Of a stretch of 64,000 nt of DNA, positions 45,841-60,294 are shown in pieces. The notes beneath the pieces were generated by a model. It was not told where the DNA came from. It saw only the letters and a program-made list of their open reading frames with translations, and made no database searches. This DNA comes from an uncultured virus (IMG/VR IMGVR_UViG_3300046168_000066) (lineage: Duplodnaviria > Heunggongvirae > Uroviricota > Caudoviricetes). The stretch's first letter is position 1; the number at the start of each line of letters is the position of its first letter. The position numbers and the translations under genes were made by a program. The stretch lies in IMG/VR virus record IMGVR_UViG_3300046168_000066. One strand, 5' to 3'.

Positions 45841-46953
45841 ATGAAAGATGGTGTCAACTATTATGCTGAGATAATTAGCATAAAAAATGAATTATTGGAA
45901 TTAAATGAAAAAACTCAAGTGTATGATCCTGAGTTAAATTGGGAATATATAAAAAGCAGAAAATCAGAATTGTTTGTAAAATTAAAAGAATACAACAAGC
46001 AAATTCAGTATACAAATTCTAATATAACTCCAGTAAAACCGATTGAATTTGATTCCGACAAAATAATAAATAAATACAAAAAAATCACTTGCATTTTACA
46101 ATACTACGATGAACCGGTAATTGAACGAAGAAACGAGTTAATTTCAGCAATTAATAATAACATTAATAATCAAGAAATAAACACTTGTGTAATTTTTTTA
46201 GAAAACACAAAAGCATCAAGAGCAATAAAATCATTAAAAAAAGATTTAATAAAATCTTCAAAAATAAAATATATTTCCACCGAAAAACGATTAACATATC
46301 AAGATGCAATAAAGTGGGTAAACAAAGATAATAAAAAAGACACCGTTTATTTATTAACAAATAATGATTGTTATTTTAATCAATCTATAAATTTGTTAAA
46401 AAAAGTTGATTATTGCAATGGAAAACGATTGTTATGTTTAACACGAAAAGATCAATTAAAAGATGGAACAATTGAAAGAGGAAAATCACCTCCAATATAC
46501 AATGAAACTTACGAATTCAATAAAGTTCACGATTTAAATAGAGAAAATTGGTCATTATTAGATTACAACTGCTCAGATGCGTGGGCATTTATTTGCTCAA
46601 TTGATGATTTAAATTGTAATTACGAACTTGGTACATTCAATTGCGAGTATTTTTTTACCGAAGACTTGCACCTTAATAATGTTCAACTTAGAAATCCAAG
46701 TGAGTATATAGATTGTATTCATATTCACAATACAAACTTTCGCAGAAATTATGCGTTTGGTAACGATATAACAAGTCAACGACAAAACAAATTATATCCG
46801 TCAGAACCATCAGATCGAAATGAAAATAATTGGATTTTAGGCACTTGGAGATTGCGATCAAAATATAATTATGTGGACAGGGATTCCGAGATGCATGAGT
46901 ATTCGGATTACGTGGTTCGGAATTTTATGGACATATGCGAGGGTGAGGAATGA
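45841..46953 (+). CDS. Hypothetical GT-A-like protein
   Basis: LTNNDCYF, DAWAF, NPS...IHIH; preceded by ATATTTATA. Confidence 0.45.
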   Translation: MKDGVNYYAEIISIKNELLELNEKTQVYDPELNWEYIKSRKSELFVKLKEYNKQIQYTNSNITPVKPIEFDSDKIINKYKKITCILQYYDEPVIERRNELISAINNNINNQEINTCVIFLENTKASRAIKSLKKDLIKSSKIKYISTEKRLTYQDAIKWVNKDNKKDTVYLLTNNDCYFNQSINLLKKVDYCNGKRLLCLTRKDQLKDGTIERGKSPPIYNETYEFNKVHDLNRENWSLLDYNCSDAWAFICSIDDLNCNYELGTFNCEYFFTEDLHLNNVQLRNPSEYIDCIHIHNTNFRRNYAFGNDITSQRQNKLYPSEPSDRNENNWILGTWRLRSKYNYVDRDSEMHEYSDYVVRNFMDICEGEE

Positions 46954-47543
46954 TTGTATCGCATAAGCATAAGTTTGTATTTGTCAAGATTCCCAAGACT
47001 GCGGGGGAATCCTTTGTAAGTGTTTTGGAACAATATGCGGCCATGGATTTATGGAATACTGATTTAGGAAATCACGAAAGGTATAGTGATATTATTTTGG
47101 AAAATCGTGATTTTGAAAAATATTTTTCCTTTGCGTTTGTCAGAAATCCTTACGAGTTAAAGGTTTCTAGGTATTTCTATGTAAAAGAGGTTGAGAAAGT
47201 GTGCAGTTGTACTAGTTTTGTAGAATGGGTAACATTGGGTTCTCCGGTAAAAATGTTAGATGAAACACAGAGCAAGGAAGATTGGTTTCCTTGGTCGCAG
47301 CTGCGTTTTTTGATGAACAAGGAGCGTGAGTTGGCAGTAGATTTCATCGGAAGATTTGAAAACCTTCAAGAAGACTTTAATACAATCTGCGACAAAATCG
47401 GAATTCCACGACAACAACTTCCACACAAAAACAAATCAAAACATAAACATTACACCGAATACTATGACGATGAGACAAGAGAAATTGTTGCGGAAAAATA
47501 CGCAAAAGACATTGAGCATTTCGGTTACGAGTTTGGAGAATGA
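46950..47543 (+). CDS. Sulfotransferase family 2 protein
   Basis: FVKIPKTAG; FVRNPYE; conserved tail. Confidence 0.9.
   Translation: MIVSHKHKFVFVKIPKTAGESFVSVLEQYAAMDLWNTDLGNHERYSDIILENRDFEKYFSFAFVRNPYELKVSRYFYVKEVEKVCSCTSFVEWVTLGSPVKMLDETQSKEDWFPWSQLRFLMNKERELAVDFIGRFENLQEDFNTICDKIGIPRQQLPHKNKSKHKHYTEYYDDETREIVAEKYAKDIEHFGYEFGE
47340..47543 (+). repeat. Sulfotransferase constant 3' repeat copy
   Basis: ~200 bp, highly similar to the copies at 48614, 53197, 59473 and 60088. Confidence 0.9.
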
Positions 47544-48181
47544 TAATATCACATAAACATAAGTTTGTATTTATTGCAGTACCGAAAACTGCTACTGCGA
47601 CCATTCGTGAAGCACTAAAAACACATTCGGATATAATCGGTGAGGGTATAGATCCACCCTATGACTGGCATCCACGTGCAGTTGATTTAAAAAAACACTT
47701 TCACAAAAAAAAATGGGACTGGAATAAATATTTTAAATTTGCTTTTGTGCGTAATCCCTGGGATAGATTAAACTCAGAATATTTATATAGAAAGAAAAGA
47801 ATAAGTGTATTTAAGGATAAGCAAGACAAACCAAAATATATAATAGAATCAGAGAAAATGTTTCGTAATGTTGATAATTTTGCGAAGTGGGTTAAAAGTG
47901 AGTATATCAATACACAAAATCCATGCTTCCCAAATCAATGTAAATATTTGATGGAAACAAATAATGAATTACTTGTAGATTTTGTAGGCAAATTTGAAAA
48001 CTTACAACAAGATTTTAATATAGTCTGTGATAAAATAGGGATTGAAAGACAAACCCTTCAGCATAAAAATAAAACCAAACATAAATTTTATACGGAATAT
48101 TACGATGAAGAAGCACGACAGATTGTGGCAGAAGTGTACGCAGACGAAATTAAGTGCTTTGATTATGAATTTGGAGAATAA
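47540..48181 (+). CDS. Sulfotransferase family 2 protein
   Basis: IAVPKTATAT; FVRNPWDRL; conserved tail. Confidence 0.9.
   Translation: MIISHKHKFVFIAVPKTATATIREALKTHSDIIGEGIDPPYDWHPRAVDLKKHFHKKKWDWNKYFKFAFVRNPWDRLNSEYLYRKKRISVFKDKQDKPKYIIESEKMFRNVDNFAKWVKSEYINTQNPCFPNQCKYLMETNNELLVDFVGKFENLQQDFNIVCDKIGIERQTLQHKNKTKHKFYTEYYDEEARQIVAEVYADEIKCFDYEFGE
47978..48181 (+). repeat. Sulfotransferase constant 3' repeat copy (more diverged)
   Basis: Same peptide tail with more synonymous changes. Confidence 0.7.
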
Positions 48182-48184
48182 TAA

Positions 48185-48817
48185 ATGAGAATATCACATA
48201 AATATAAATTTGTATACATTGCGGTAACTAAAACTGGAAGCACCACGGTTAGAAAAATGTTAAATCCACTCTCTGATGTTGTGAGTGACCATTCCACAGA
48301 ATCCCCTTATCACCATCACACTCATGCGGTAGATTTAAAGAAACATTTTAAGGAGAGGGGTTGGAATTGGGACGAATACTTTAAGTTTTCATTTGTAAGA
48401 AATCCGTGGAGTAGATTGGTTTCACTTTTTAACTATCAACGAGAGTATGTTCGTGGGTATGAAAAAGACGTTGAGTCTTCCAGGTATTTTGAGGGATATT
48501 ACAAAAGATGTAAGAAAAATACTCACAACAGAAATTTTGAAGTATATGTAGATAAGATTTGGATGGGTGACCAATTTGATTTTCTATATGATGAAAATAA
48601 TAATCAACTTGTTGATTTTGTCGGCAAAACAGAAAACCTCCAAGAAGACTTCAATACAATCTGCGACAAAATTGGAATTCCACGACAAGAACTTCCACAC
48701 AAAAATAAAACAAAACACAAACATTACACTGAATACTACGATGACGAAACGAGGGAACTTGTTGCGGAAAAATACGCAAAAGACATTGAGTATTTTGGGT
48801 ATGAATTTGGAGAATGA
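48185..48817 (+). CDS. Sulfotransferase family 2 protein
   Basis: IAVTKTGSTT; FVRNPWSRL; conserved tail. Confidence 0.9.
   Translation: MRISHKYKFVYIAVTKTGSTTVRKMLNPLSDVVSDHSTESPYHHHTHAVDLKKHFKERGWNWDEYFKFSFVRNPWSRLVSLFNYQREYVRGYEKDVESSRYFEGYYKRCKKNTHNRNFEVYVDKIWMGDQFDFLYDENNNQLVDFVGKTENLQEDFNTICDKIGIPRQELPHKNKTKHKHYTEYYDDETRELVAEKYAKDIEYFGYEFGE
48614..48817 (+). repeat. Sulfotransferase constant 3' repeat copy
   Basis: Direct DNA comparison with the other copies. Confidence 0.9.
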
Positions 48818-58977: not shown

Positions 58978-59103
58978 TGCCGTTCCCACAATTGAATTTT
59001 ACGATTTCCGACATATCTGCCACAAAAAAGCATACAATTTTTCAAATTATTTTCATAAACCCCCTCGTCTTTCTATTTATATAAGGAGGTTAGCAGATAG
59101 ATA

Positions 59104-59676
59104 ATGATAAGTCATAAACACAAGTTTATTTTTGTTCACATTCCCAAAACGGCAGGTCGAAGCATAGAAAAATATTTGCTAAATTTTAATTCTATGAGAG
59201 AAATGCAACCACATCACTCGGTCACCGATTACATTAAAAGAGTAAAAAATTTTAATTCTATGTTTAAATTTTCATTTGTAAGAAATCCATATGAAAGATT
59301 ATTAAGTGAATATTTTTACATGAAGAGGATGAAAGGTTGTAACTGTGAATTTAAAGATTTTAAAATAGAGTGCAATACATTTAAAAAATTTGTAATTTCC
59401 GATGCGGTAGAAAAATGTTGTTTTAAACATCACAATACTCCACAAATTGAAATGGCAAATCCCAAATACATGAATTTTATAGGAAGATTTGAAAATCTCC
59501 AAGAAGACTTTGATATTATCTGCGACAAAATTGGAATTCCACGACAACAACTTCCACACAAAAACAAAAGCAAACACAAACACTACACCGAATATTACAA
59601 CGATGAGACGAAACAAATCGTTGCGGAAAAATACGCAAAGGATATTGAGTATTTCGGTTATAAATTTGGAGAATGA
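59104..59676 (+). CDS. Sulfotransferase family 2 protein
   Basis: FVHIPKTAGRS; FVRNPYERL; conserved tail. Confidence 0.9.
   Translation: MISHKHKFIFVHIPKTAGRSIEKYLLNFNSMREMQPHHSVTDYIKRVKNFNSMFKFSFVRNPYERLLSEYFYMKRMKGCNCEFKDFKIECNTFKKFVISDAVEKCCFKHHNTPQIEMANPKYMNFIGRFENLQEDFDIICDKIGIPRQQLPHKNKSKHKHYTEYYNDETKQIVAEKYAKDIEYFGYKFGE
59473..59676 (+). repeat. Sulfotransferase constant 3' repeat copy
   Basis: 59513-59598 is identical to 60128-60213 (86 bp). Confidence 0.92.
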
Positions 59677-59679
59677 GGA

Positions 59680-60294
59680 ATGATAAGTCATAAGTATAAA
59701 TGCATATTTATTCACATACCTAAATGTGGGGGTTCTTCAATAGAAAATGCCATTGATGGTAGAGACTGGTGGAATATAAACAAACCAATTAACATAAAAT
59801 GTGAAAAACACTTTTCAGCTGAGAAGTGTAAGCAACAATATAGCAAGTATTGGGAAGAATACACCAAATTTACTATGGTGCGAAATCCTTATTCATTACA
59901 AGTATCATGGTATTTTTTTAAAAATATATATAATCACAAAATGTCCTTCAAAGAATATGTTAAAAACGAAAAAATTAATCGTATTTCAAGATATAGTGGT
60001 GGGTTCTTAGATAAAAAGTGGAGTAAGATAATGCCAGACTTATTAACATCTTACGAGTATATTTCAACTAATGGTGCAATTGAATTAGATTTCATCGGAA
60101 AATTTGAAAACATCCAAGAAGACTTTAATATTATCTGCGACAAAATTGGAATTCCACGACAACAACTTCCACACAAAAACAAAAGCAAACACAAACACTA
60201 CACCGAATATTACGATGACGAAACTCGTCAAATCGTTGCGGAAAAATACGCAAAGGACATTGAGTATTTTGGGTATGAATTTGGGAAAAGTTGA
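59680..60294 (+). CDS. Sulfotransferase family 2 protein
   Basis: FIHIPKCGGSS; VRNPYS; conserved tail. Confidence 0.9.
   Translation: MISHKYKCIFIHIPKCGGSSIENAIDGRDWWNINKPINIKCEKHFSAEKCKQQYSKYWEEYTKFTMVRNPYSLQVSWYFFKNIYNHKMSFKEYVKNEKINRISRYSGGFLDKKWSKIMPDLLTSYEYISTNGAIELDFIGKFENIQEDFNIICDKIGIPRQQLPHKNKSKHKHYTEYYDDETRQIVAEKYAKDIEYFGYEFGKS
60088..60294 (+). repeat. Sulfotransferase constant 3' repeat copy
   Basis: 86 bp identity to the 59473 copy. Confidence 0.92.

What the first reader, a model, noticed from the sequence alone, without database searches (positions are those of the whole stretch)
46950..60294. Variable-head / constant-tail sulfotransferase array: candidate recombinational cassette-shuffling system
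Seen: ten Sulfotransfer_2 domains lie in this stretch (about 15 in the window). Their central regions are barely alignable, but the last ~200 bp (FIG.FENLQ.DF..ICDKIG.P.Q.LPH.NK.KHKHYTEYYD.ET..IVAEKYAKDIEYF.Y.FGE) are conserved at the DNA level, including synonymous sites, with C-ending codons (atc tgc gac, cac, tac, aac) unlike the AT-rich heads. Unrelated glycosyltransferase genes sit between copies. Known: the PAPS-binding motifs of this family lie in the N-terminal and central parts, so catalysis does not obviously explain nucleotide-level conservation of the tail. Inference: the tail is a dispersed homology anchor that lets the genome swap, gain and lose sulfotransferase heads and the genes between anchors. 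This would be an integron-like array with no integrase in view.
Basis: partly seen in the sequence, partly recalled or inferred. Interest (0 to 1): 0.9.

Follow-up and report, generated by a model that had tools for sequence, protein, structure and literature searches.

The report
Phage sulfotransferase array with exchangeable tails
An uncultured marine phage carries some fifteen sulfate-adding enzyme genes whose shared last third is mainly the conserved core of the enzyme, but that third has also been copied between genes and marks spots where genes were swapped or deleted.

Summary
Ten Sulfotransfer_2 genes lie in 46950-60294 and 15 in the window. Heads are barely alignable; the last 68 codons are alike in protein and DNA.

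The DNA effect is modest. Tail synonymous difference is 0.53 against 0.71 (saturated) in heads. Same-codon use is 0.71 against a null of 0.58. C-ending NAY-type codons are 48% against 24%.

The excess is family-wide: it is nearly as strong between unrelated viral contigs. Single-copy bacterial homologues keep the same tail motif, and the tail is an integral part of the sulfotransferase fold. Enzyme function is therefore the first cause of tail conservation.

Tails have nevertheless moved:
- S06 and S07 share a 93%-identical tail on unrelated heads.
- An 85% orthologue of the S04 head in another contig carries an S10-like tail.
- 5'-truncated tail stubs lie behind unrelated genes, one at 58042-58080.
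- The tail's last bases usually supply the next gene's ribosome-binding site.

No integrase, attC-like structure, conserved RNA fold or overlapping frame was found.

Verdict: a birth-and-death enzyme family in a hypervariable phage glycan island, with homologous recombination at a constrained coding segment. It is not an integron-like system. The scan reached a similar conclusion on other DNA (e1-5354487).

The parts
46950..47543 (+). S01, Sulfotransfer_2 gene; canonical tail 47338-47543; its stop overlaps the start of S02 (ATGA)
   Evidence: Pfam 67.5 bits; tail DNA profile hit; junction sequence
47540..48181 (+). S02, Sulfotransfer_2 gene; tail 47976-48181 is the most diverged of the array (pS 0.67-0.80 against the others)
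48185..48817 (+). S03, Sulfotransfer_2 gene; tail 48612-48817; shares a tract of about 130 nt at about 92% identity with the S04 tail
   Evidence: d
48821..49510 (+). S04, Sulfotransfer_2 gene with a 1-nt frameshift in its tail (near 49417; the in-frame tail would end at 49460). Contigs of three other runs carry an extra A here. Its head has an 82-85% nt orthologue in L013
49489..50703 (+). Weak GT2-like gene lying between sulfotransferase copies
   Evidence: Pfam PF00535, 22.1 bits, just below the cut-off
50700..51320 (+). S05: Sulfotransfer_2 head (ORF 50700-51212) with its tail (51126-51320) broken by two frameshifts. The tail has no stop and runs into the next ORF. Variant contigs with 1-nt deletions at 51198 and 51259 should read through: the two deletions match the two +1 shifts seen, but the variant was not translated
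51245..52138 (+). Sulfotransfer_1/3-type ORF whose first 25 codons are the end of the S05 tail
   Evidence: Pfam PF00685 56.6 bits; frames
52759..53400 (+). S06, Sulfotransfer_2 gene; tail 53196-53400 is 93% identical to the S07 tail although the heads are unrelated
   Evidence: d
54141..55658 (+). S07, a 505-aa fusion of an unassigned N-terminal part (about 320 aa) with a Sulfotransfer_2 domain (residues 342-503); tail 55456-55658
   Evidence: d
55703..56392 (+). GT11 (fucosyltransferase family) gene between copies
   Evidence: Pfam PF01531 44.5 bits
56532..57128 (+). S08, Sulfotransfer_2 gene; tail 56923-57128
57132..58043 (+). GT92/GT2_4-like gene, flanked on the left by the S08 tail and on the right by a tail stub
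58042..58080 (+). Orphan tail stub: the last 12-13 codons of a canonical tail. It is out of frame with the GT92-like gene, ends in GGAGGA TAA, and lies 3 nt before the ATG of the next gene
   Evidence: PWM 35.1 bits against a shuffled maximum of 10.9. It is the only partial tail outside known tails in the window. Similarity is limited to the last 36 nt
58084..58977 (+). Unassigned 297-aa gene. In relative L176 (best tblastn segment 85% aa) its orthologue is followed by a 26-codon collapsed sulfotransferase cassette, not by the window's spacer plus S09
59104..59676 (+). S09, Sulfotransfer_2 gene; tail 59471-59676
59680..60294 (+). S10, Sulfotransfer_2 gene; tail 60086-60294; nearest tail anywhere is L013:15117-15320 (89%)
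22871..23494 (+). Canonical-tail Sulfotransfer_2 gene outside the given coordinates (tail 23289-23494)
13545..14279 (+). Sulfotransfer_2 gene with a diverged tail, outside the given coordinates. Further ones at 21633-22328, 28329-29762 (N-terminal domain) and 11988-12710 (weak)

Best explanation
The stretch is part of a 64-kb, one-strand island of glycan-building genes in an uncultured marine phage, probably a large T4-like myovirus.

The sulfotransferases form a birth-and-death gene family. Each enzyme has a variable head and middle, presumably the acceptor-binding part. Each also has a constant last third, which is the last core strand and the C-terminal helices of the sulfotransferase fold. 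That third is held constant mainly by purifying selection on the protein.

Because this constraint keeps about 200 nt similar in many genes, the phage's general homologous recombination can act on it. This can happen between paralogues and between co-infecting relatives. Whole or partial tails are copied or crossed over, so canonical tails share a younger nucleotide ancestor than the heads they sit on. Heads, and sometimes unrelated genes, are replaced or deleted with one joint in or at the tail.

The last 12-15 nt of the tail usually hold the Shine-Dalgarno sequence for the next, closely abutting gene. That would explain why deletion and replacement products keep the 3' end of the tail as a stub.

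Shown here: family membership, fold, the head/tail contrast at synonymous sites, individual tail exchanges, the stubs, and the RBS/start geometry.

Inferred: the recombination mechanism, the role of the heads in acceptor choice, and the reason stubs persist.
For: 1. Tails are less diverged than heads at synonymous sites.
- pS is 0.53 in tails against 0.71 in heads.
- Same-codon fraction is 0.714 against null 0.578 in tails; heads sit at their null.

2. Site-specific codon states are shared across contigs.
- The C fraction at 22 Y-ending two-fold tail sites ranges from 0.06 to 0.75 (heterogeneity chi2 425, 21 d.f.). Seven head sites range from 0.18 to 0.37 (p = 0.06).
- A one-parameter model of decay from a single ancestral tail (residual 0.49, lnL -1864) fits better than a uniform tail-specific codon bias (-2122) or the head equilibrium (-2499).

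3. Discrete exchanges.
- S06 and S07 are 93% identical from the first tail codon to the stop, with no similarity upstream. They are the only one of 5,794 canonical pairs with tail identity at least 0.90 and head identity below 0.55.
- L013:14676-15323 matches S04 at 82-85% nt. The match is confined to the gene. Its last ~130 nt are 88-93% identical to S10 against 72-81% to S04.

4. Extra homogeneity within the window. One 30-mer of the tail occurs exactly 6 times in the window, and 8 times with at most one mismatch. In all of IMG/VR it has 19 sites on 17 contigs, at most 3 per contig.

5. Stubs with nested 5' ends that all keep the 3' end.
- Window 58042-58080.
- L048 (about 36 nt), L014 (about 60 nt), L001 (about 72 nt), L045 (about 15 codons), L030 (about 44 codons) and L071 (DNA profile positions 163-203).
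- Collapsed start-plus-tail mini-ORFs in L012 (31 codons) and L176 (26 codons).

6. RBS and start geometry. Of 116 canonical tails with their own stop, 81 have GGAG, GGGA or GAGG in the last 14 nt plus stop. In 77 the next ORF's ATG lies within -4 to +20 of the stop.

7. Protein constraint.
- The tail motif is kept in cellular homologues; median identity to the phage consensus is 51%, and 60 of 79 loci are single copy.
- The model (pLDDT 87) aligns over residues 6-199 with heparan sulfate 6-O-sulfotransferase (Z 11.0). P-loop kinases align only to about residue 158.

8. Context.
- Related contigs carry similar arrays: 10 domain hits in L007, 8 each in L013 and L030.
- One related contig of 222 kb has a T4 gp23 capsid gene.
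- Hypervariable glycosyltransferase-rich 'host recognition clusters' are described for T4-like pelagimyophages and cyanomyophages (PMC7029224, passages read).
Against: - The synonymous excess is nearly as large between unrelated contigs as within them. Ongoing within-array conversion is therefore at most a minor contributor, and site-specific selection on codons cannot be excluded.
- PHI on the ten window tails is weak: p = 0.03 at 20 nt and 0.52 at 40 nt.
- For the best-head partners with non-canonical or distinctive tails listed, the tail's best match is the orthologue. For orthologues with 90-98% head identity, tails are about as diverged as heads: 0.86-1.00.
- Synteny blocks between related contigs end at gene boundaries, +2 to +13 nt after a sulfotransferase stop. 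By my reading of the 147 listed block ends, this happened in about six independent cases. I did not show that this exceeds what random gene boundaries would give.
- Contig joints between tails in four seawater runs are ambiguous, because short contigs break at repeats.
- No close relative of the whole array was available.
- That the window's own genome is T4-like rests on relatives, not on the window.
Confidence: 0.55

Rival explanations
1. Constraint only. The tail is alike in DNA because nearly every residue is fixed by enzyme function, the genome is AT-rich, and particular codons are favoured at particular tail sites (translation accuracy or speed, or avoidance of internal signals). Recombination plays no special role, and the array grew by ordinary duplication and horizontal gain.
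For: - The tail motif is conserved in cellular, mostly single-copy homologues.
- The tail is an integral part of the fold.
- The synonymous excess is family-wide, not genome-specific.
- In tails, NAY codons shift to C and NAR codons to A, the usual direction of translational selection (that this is the usual direction is recalled).
- Close orthologues show tails evolving as fast as heads.
Against: - A uniform tail-specific codon bias fits much worse than site-specific shared states.
- Equally conserved head residues (R68, N69, P70 and others) show no such codon pattern.
- The S06/S07 tract with its sharp 5' boundary, the L013 head/tail chimera and the stubs need recombination.
Confidence: 0.2
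2. Nucleic-acid element. The tail DNA or RNA itself carries a function over much of its length, such as a promoter, a structured RNA, an antisense terminator or an overlapping gene. That function conserves the synonymous sites.
For: - The last 12-15 nt act as an SD/start context for the next gene in about two thirds of tails.
- A 5-bp inverted repeat, TTGCG-N8-CGCAA, is completed by the unusual GCG and TAC codons. On the minus strand it reads as terminator-like at four tails.
- Terminator-like sites are enriched in the region: 21 against 5.1 +/- 2.7 expected, 18 of them on the minus strand.
Against: - RNAalifold on 86 tails gives -0.26 kcal/mol, no better than codon-column shuffles at -0.08 +/- 0.25.
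- No alternative frame is open in more than 34 of 90 tails.
- No Rfam family matched.
- For the hairpin, three of the five pairs are forced by the amino acids. The pair that depends on synonymous sites is broken in 27 of 93 sequences, and covariation barely exceeds shuffles.
- Sigma-70-like sites are not enriched: 87 against 95.7 +/- 8.2.
Confidence: 0.12
3. Dedicated cassette system. The array is an integron-like or shufflon-like device, and a site-specific recombinase acts on the tail as its recombination site.
For: - Repeated conserved segments bound variable units.
- Single genes occur in unrelated contexts: the S04 orthologue in L013 has homology confined to the gene.
- Stubs sit at junctions.
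Against: - No integrase, transposase, invertase, reverse transcriptase or homing-endonuclease family appeared in 69 window ORFs.
- Only two weak inverted-repeat pairs (72% and 82% complementary) lie in the region, both in gene heads and neither at a tail; there is no attC-like fold.
- Stub 5' ends are nested at many positions, not at one crossover point.
- Tails differ by 7-37% in sequence.
- Only 64 kb of the genome could be examined.
Confidence: 0.05
4. Peptide tag. The last 12-20 residues are a docking or targeting tag shared by different tailoring enzymes. The tag would be conserved for a protein-protein contact, and stubs would be tags on other enzymes.
For: - The extreme C-terminus (DIEYFGYKFGE) is the most uniform part across contigs.
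Against: - In this window the stub behind the GT92-like gene is out of frame and lies after its stop.
- The stubs in L014, L030, L001, L045 and L048 are likewise not in frame with the preceding gene.
- The model places these residues in helices of the catalytic domain, aligned with solved sulfotransferases up to residue 199-204.
Confidence: 0.05

Closest known systems
PeSL-mediated modular shuffling in hyperplastic regions of T4-type phages (Arbiol et al. 2010, PMC2839356, abstract read; Comeau et al. 2014, PMC4122927, search listing only)
   Same: Short conserved sequences are dispersed among non-essential genes of a T4-like phage's variable region. They serve as substrates for homologous recombination that inserts, deletes and replaces genes. 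Both carry expression signals for the neighbouring gene.
   Different: PeSLs are intergenic promoter plus stem-loop terminator cassettes. Here the repeated unit is about 200 nt of coding sequence kept alike by enzyme function. It has no stem-loop and no promoter enrichment, and only an SD at its end. Mini-circles or actual recombination products were not observed here.
Concerted evolution and gene conversion in multigene families with constant and variable parts (general principle, recalled)
   Same: Paralogues keep one segment alike while another diversifies. Discrete converted tracts occur (S06/S07, S03/S04). Head and tail histories are discordant (L013).
   Different: The homogenisation is weak and mostly at the level of the whole viral gene pool, not the single genome. 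The constant part is also under strong protein constraint in single-copy cellular genes.
Host recognition cluster (HRC) of T4-like pelagimyophages and cyanomyophages (Zaragoza-Solas et al. 2020, PMC7029224, passages read)
   Same: A large non-syntenic island next to structural and fibre genes, rich in glycosyltransferases and other LPS-type genes. The paper gives a mean size of 44.6 kb in pelagimyophages.
   Different: The paper's main text does not contain the word sulfotransferase (0 occurrences). The window was not shown to lie between the HRC's flanking marker genes. The array and its tails are not described there.
Integron gene-cassette arrays
   Same: A row of unrelated or variable units separated by a recurring sequence; single units are found in different contexts.
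   Different: No IntI-type integrase. No attC imperfect inverted repeat. The recurring sequence is part of the coding region. Junctions are nested rather than at a fixed point.
Carbohydrate sulfotransferases of Pfam Sulfotransfer_2, e.g. heparan sulfate 2-O- and 6-O-sulfotransferases (PDB 3f5f, 5t03)
   Same: HMM membership, the 5'-PSB-like and 3'-PB-like motifs, and the fold including the C-terminal helices.
   Different: These are small soluble proteins of about 200 aa with 11-16% identity to the solved enzymes. Their substrates are unknown and they are phage-encoded in arrays.

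Membership tests
Pfam PF03567 Sulfotransfer_2 | Score above the curated gathering cut-off (22 bits) | tested here: met
   10 ORFs in 46950-60294 score 40-75 bits and 5 more in the window score 24.6-68.7 bits
Pfam PF03567 Sulfotransfer_2 | PAPS-binding motifs: P-loop-like 5'-PSB near the N-terminus and 3'-PB (RNP...R..S). 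The motif names are recalled | tested here: met
   K15, R68, N69, P70 and S76 are invariant or at least 90% conserved in 70 sequences; alignment
Pfam PF03567 Sulfotransfer_2 | Sulfotransferase fold including the C-terminal helices | tested here: met
   AF2 pLDDT 87.3. VIA-align Z 11.0, rmsd 3.6, 169 residues aligned (6-199) to 5t03_A; Z 9.7 to 3f5f_A
Pfam PF03567 Sulfotransfer_2 | PAPS-dependent sulfate transfer to a glycan | not testable with these tools
   Needs an enzyme assay
Integron | IntI tyrosine recombinase next to the array | tested here: not met
   No integrase or recombinase family in 29 + 40 window ORFs. Only the 64-kb window could be searched
Integron | attC site: imperfect inverted repeat that folds as a hairpin at each cassette end | tested here: not met
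   No consensus structure in 86 tails. Only two weak inverted-repeat pairs in 45800-61000, both inside gene heads
PeSL regulatory cassettes of T4-type phages | Intergenic sigma-70-like promoter followed by a stem-loop terminator | tested here: not met
   Tails are coding. Promoter-like sites number 87 against 95.7 +/- 8.2 expected. No plus-strand terminator-like site lies in a tail. No conserved stem-loop
PeSL regulatory cassettes of T4-type phages | Recombination between copies causes insertions, deletions and replacements between close relatives | tested here: inconclusive
   Stubs and chimeras exist, but no close relative of the whole array was available. Block ends lie at gene boundaries
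Gene family under gene conversion (concerted evolution) | Paralogous segments more alike within a genome than between genomes | tested here: met
   The effect is weak. Same-codon fraction is 0.714 window-window against 0.629 window-other, and 0.627 against 0.595 for other contigs. The 30-mer occurs 6 times in the window against at most 3 in any IMG/VR contig
Gene family under gene conversion (concerted evolution) | Discrete tracts with sharp boundaries; head and tail histories discordant | tested here: met
   S06/S07 tract; L013 chimera. PHI is weak. No formal tree test was done
Diversity-generating retroelement | Reverse transcriptase plus a template/variable repeat pair | tested here: not met
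   No RT family in the window ORFs. The heads are not near-repeats of one another
T4-like myovirus (for the host genome of the window) | gp23-type major capsid protein | tested here: inconclusive
   Found in 1 of 5 related complete contigs (G001, E 1.6e-89). The window's own genome is not held. The window shows only weak similarity to a cyanophage structural protein and to a baseplate PHROG

The most novel reading that the evidence does not exclude
The tail, together with the SD at its end and the conserved start of the next gene, may act as a protein-coding counterpart of the PeSL cassettes. It would be a portable joint that lets marine T4-like phages reassort sulfotransferase specificity heads and neighbouring glycan genes across the viral gene pool, so that sulfation patterns can be re-dealt quickly. 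The joint would be retained as a translated stub after deletions because it keeps the next gene translationally coupled.
Probability: 0.25. Interest if true: 0.7.

Novelty: new variant of a known kind. Interest (0 to 1): 0.5.

Why it matters
Sulfated glycans made by phages are not described experimentally, as far as my searches went. In one search (sulfotransferase, phage, hypervariable, marine), none of the 8 papers listed concerns a phage sulfotransferase array, judged from titles and abstract starts. In one search (sulfotransferase, myovirus, glycosyltransferase, metagenom) there was 1 paper, on polinton-like viruses.

This window holds the largest such enzyme set I saw: 15 Sulfotransfer_2 genes plus three ORFs of the Sulfotransfer_1/3 type. 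The 69 related IMG/VR loci held at most 10.

If tails do serve as recombination joints, that would show how functional constraint on a coding segment can itself create the homology that makes a gene family modular. It would also give a handle for predicting and engineering head swaps.

If constraint alone explains the pattern, the case is a caution. Shared synonymous states in a short, highly conserved segment can look like a cassette system.

Tried and rejected
- Cultured phages. Megablast of the array against 50,697 phage records found nothing. tblastn of S10 found 3 records at under 31% identity.
- Whole genome. None is held for this window.
- RNA families and tRNAs. None found in the window.
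- Conserved RNA fold of the tail. Rejected.
- Overlapping reading frame in the tail. Rejected.
- PHI recombination test on the ten window tails. Weak and dependent on window size.
- Uniform tail-specific codon bias. Rejected in favour of site-specific shared states.
- Foreign, higher-GC origin of the tail. Not favoured, because overall GC3 is hardly raised and K/E/Q codons are more A-ending than in heads.
- Hairpin TTGCG-N8-CGCAA. Three pairs are forced by the protein, and covariation is not convincing.
- A mobile unit of GT92-like gene plus stub. Of 7 relatives of that gene, only L071 lies next to sulfotransferase tails. The four giant-virus-bin contigs and the other two have none.
- GT2-like gene 49489-50703. 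No relative found in IMG/VR.
- Laying contigs of four seawater runs. Many joints between tails are listed, but the sides are short (21-82 nt), likeness was set to 88%, and contigs break at the repeats. I do not count them as recombinants. The joint 48532/55872, seen in all four runs, has only 23-nt sides and looks like another organism.
- Metagenome scan for close relatives. It gave only two short contigs.
- Enrichment of synteny breaks at tails over other gene boundaries. Not established.
- Orphan classification. It differed between two scripts because stop-to-stop ORFs of the next gene can cover a stub. I list stubs only where the frames were inspected or the profile coordinates are explicit.

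Full report
**What is there**

All long ORFs of the 64-kb window lie on the plus strand, and GC content is about 30%.

Pfam finds Sulfotransfer_2 (PF03567) above its cut-off in 10 of the 17 ORFs scanned in 46950-60294. I call these S01-S10. Five more lie elsewhere: 11988 (weak), 13545, 21633, 22871 and 28329.

Three further ORFs are of the Sulfotransfer_1/3 type: 8611, 12714 and 51245.

The other ORFs are glycosyltransferases of many families (GT2, GT8, GT11, GT25, GT92-like, Nucleotid_trans, FUT8/NodZ-like), sugar-nucleotide enzymes, a methyltransferase and unassigned proteins. At the 5' end lie large proteins with Laminin_G_3 and dockerin-like parts. No recombinase family was seen in the 69 ORFs scanned.

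**State of the copies**

Eight array copies are intact.
- S04 has a 1-nt frameshift in its tail.
- S05 has two frameshifts. Its tail lacks a stop and runs into the Sulfotransfer_1-type ORF 51245-52138.
- In contigs of other seawater runs an extra A follows 49417 (three runs). Deletions at 51198 and 51259 occur in all four runs, in two of them at about half the depth. The first matches the 1-nt shortfall in the S04 tail and the pair match the two +1 shifts in S05, so these breaks look polymorphic or partly errors; the variant sequences were not translated.

**Check of the DNA-level claim**

- Heads are 38-58% identical in nucleotides over aligned columns. Tails are 63-93%.
- Over 28 pairs of the eight intact copies, NG86 pS is 0.53 in tails (0.12 for S06/S07, up to 0.80 for S02) and 0.71 in heads. 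pN is 0.12 against 0.54.
- I also used a measure that does not depend on poorly aligned residues: the share of identical codons at identical amino acids. It is 0.714 in window tails, against 0.578 after shuffling synonymous codons within each sequence. It is 0.517 against 0.494 in heads.
- C-ending codons among NAY/TGY/TTY are 0.48 in tails, 0.24 in heads and 0.26 in the window's long ORFs. Overall GC3 differs little.

**The tail is the conserved core of the enzyme**

A scan of one genome per prokaryotic species with the tail motifs found 536 stretches, and 394 of them encode relatives.

In the 79 loci kept I found 108 domains. Sixty loci hold a single copy. Median tail identity to the phage consensus is 51%, in phyla from Desulfobacterota to Verrucomicrobiota and archaea.

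An AlphaFold model of S10 (pLDDT 87.3) aligns over residues 6-199 with heparan sulfate 6-O-sulfotransferase (Z 11.0) and over 4-199 with the 2-O enzyme (Z 9.7). P-loop kinases align only up to about residue 158.

The tail is thus the last core strand plus the sulfotransferase-specific C-terminal helices. At the protein level its constancy needs no special explanation.

**The synonymous excess is family-wide**

IMG/VR holds 69 loci with relatives, the best at 58% protein identity. Many hold arrays of their own: 10 domain hits in L007, 8 each in L013 and L030.

Among 117 canonical tails the same-codon fraction against its null is:

| comparison | observed | null |
|---|---|---|
| between contigs | 0.595 | 0.514 |
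| within other contigs | 0.627 | 0.524 |
| window against others | 0.629 | 0.536 |
| within the window | 0.714 | 0.578 |

Heads are at their null throughout. For three of the ten window tails, the nearest tail lies in another contig.

Per site, Y-ending two-fold codons fall into two groups, about 0.55-0.75 C or about 0.06-0.13 C. R-ending codons are about 0.95 A, apart from one site that is mostly GAG. Several four-fold sites are dominated by one codon, including the rare GCG and ACC.
- Heterogeneity among the 22 tail sites is extreme (chi2 425). Among 7 head sites it is not (p = 0.06).
- A one-parameter model of decay from one ancestral tail sequence towards the head equilibrium (residual 0.49) has lnL -1864. 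A uniform tail-specific bias has -2122.
- The sequences are related, so these figures are descriptive.

The simplest reading is that canonical tails share a younger nucleotide ancestor than the heads they are attached to. That requires recombination. Site-specific selection on codons remains possible.

**Direct traces of exchange**

1. S06 and S07 are 93% identical from the first tail codon to the stop, with no similarity upstream. Of 5,794 canonical pairs, this is the only one with tail identity at least 0.90 and head identity below 0.55.
2. S03 and S04, which are neighbours, share a tract of about 130 nt.
3. L013:14676-15323 matches S04 at 82-85% nt. The match runs from 9 nt before the start to the stop, and the flanks are unrelated. 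Its last ~130 nt are 88-93% identical to S10 and only 72-81% to S04.
4. A 30-mer of the tail occurs exactly six times in the window. In the whole of IMG/VR it has 19 sites on 17 contigs, at most three per contig.

**Stubs**

Behind the GT92-like gene, at 58042-58080, lie the last 12-13 codons of a tail. They are out of frame with that gene. They end in GGAGGA TAA, 3 nt before the next start. This is the only partial tail in the window.

Other contigs hold stubs of about 36, 60 and 72 nt, about 15 and 44 codons, and one covering DNA-profile positions 163-203. All keep the 3' end, and several lie behind unrelated sugar-nucleotide enzyme genes.

Two loci hold collapsed cassettes, a start codon with a few N-terminal codons joined in frame to the tail end: 31 codons in L012 and 26 in L176.

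L176 is a relative of the window; the best tblastn segment for gene 58084-58977 is 85% identical in protein. There the gene is followed by such a mini-cassette and a different next gene.

**Junction geometry**

Of 116 canonical tails with their own stop, 81 have an SD-like GGAG, GGGA or GAGG in the last 14 nt plus stop. In 77 the next ORF's ATG lies within -4 to +20 of the stop, most often 3 nt after it.

This gives a reason, which I infer and have not shown, why the 3' end of the tail survives deletions.

**What was not found**

- No conserved RNA structure.
- No open alternative frame.
- No Rfam family or tRNA.
- No promoter enrichment.
- No attC-like repeats.
- A short inverted repeat in the tail is mostly forced by the protein sequence, and its covariation is unconvincing.
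- PHI is weak.
- Synteny blocks between related contigs end 2-13 nt after a sulfotransferase stop in about six independent cases, by my reading of 147 listed ends. These are ordinary gene boundaries, and I could not show enrichment.
- Contig joints in four seawater runs are not interpretable.

**Context and what is known**

One related 222-kb contig has a T4-type capsid gene; four others gave no first-look hit.

Hypervariable, glycosyltransferase-rich host recognition clusters are described for T4-like pelagimyophages and cyanomyophages. That paper's main text does not contain the word sulfotransferase (PMC7029224, passages read).

Recombination between dispersed conserved regulatory cassettes (PeSLs) is known to shuffle genes in T4-type hyperplastic regions (PMC2839356, abstract read).

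This scan has noted the same kind of array on other DNA, with a similar verdict (e1-5354487).

**Verdict**

This is a real and unusually large phage sulfotransferase family. Its constant tail is first of all the enzyme's conserved core. The tail has also been copied and used as a joint by ordinary homologous recombination.

It is a variant of known modular shuffling and gene conversion, not an integron-like system.

Noticed in passing
window 1-64000: The whole 64-kb window is one plus-strand block. After three large structural-looking proteins (Laminin_G_3; dockerin-like repeats) come about 60 glycan genes. They include GT2, GT8, GT11, GT25, GT92-like, Nucleotid_trans and FUT8/NodZ-like genes, RmlA, an acetyltransferase, a methyltransferase and 18 sulfotransferases of two kinds. 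No PAPS-supply gene was seen in the window.
   Followed up: partly
window 50700-52138: In variant contigs of four seawater runs, two 1-nt deletions (51198, 51259) match the two frameshifts of S05. They should make it read through into the Sulfotransfer_1-type domain, giving a two-domain sulfotransferase. The variant was not translated here. The window's own version is broken.
   Followed up: partly
window 37641-38333 and 39166-39891 (also 24959-25645): Two GT25 paralogues share a nearly identical N-terminal ~35 residues and then diverge. This is the mirror image of the sulfotransferase pattern: constant head, variable rest. Three DUF1796 paralogues (9313, 22328, 38338) also recur in the island.
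   Followed up: no
window 16036-16875, 44105-44866, 45050-45580: Three NAD-epimerase/dehydratase or RmlD-type ORFs start at profile positions of about 43-76. Two of them start with TTG. They look N-terminally truncated or split and may be decaying genes.
   Followed up: no
window 47488-47505, 51270-51287, 57073-57090, 59621-59638 (minus strand): The tail holds a 5-bp inverted repeat, TTGCG-N8-CGCAA, completed by the unusual GCG and TAC codons. It is followed on the minus strand by a T-rich run. Terminator-like sites in 45800-61000 number 21 against 5.1 +/- 2.7 expected, and 18 of them are on the minus strand. Covariation is weak.
   Followed up: partly
L012 about 6780-6877; L176 about 525-605: Mini-ORFs of 31 and 26 codons are made of a sulfotransferase start joined in frame to the tail end. 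They sit between full genes and look like collapsed cassettes that may still be translated.
   Followed up: partly
L072, L074, L075, L076: The closest relatives of the GT92-like gene 57132-58043 include contigs labelled as giant-virus metagenome bins (49-54% identity; 38% for L076). They have no sulfotransferase tails nearby. The gene is therefore shared between phage-like and giant-virus-labelled contigs.
   Followed up: no
L078-L082, L088, L130: Contigs binned as Flavobacteriaceae, Thermodesulfobacteriota, Cellvibrionales, Halobacteriovorax and Planctomycetota MAGs carry tails 72-88% identical to the phage consensus. L079's two tail proteins are near-identical to those of the L036/L038/L040 group of viral contigs. 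They may be phage contigs mis-binned into MAGs.
   Followed up: no
window 19655-21640: A 661-aa protein with a GHKL-type ATPase domain (HATPase_c_3) sits in the middle of the glycan island, overlapping the preceding ORF. Its role is unclear.
   Followed up: no
window 54141-55658 and 28329-29762: Two sulfotransferase domains are fused to unassigned domains. One has about 320 aa in front (S07) and the other about 250 aa behind (28329).
   Followed up: no
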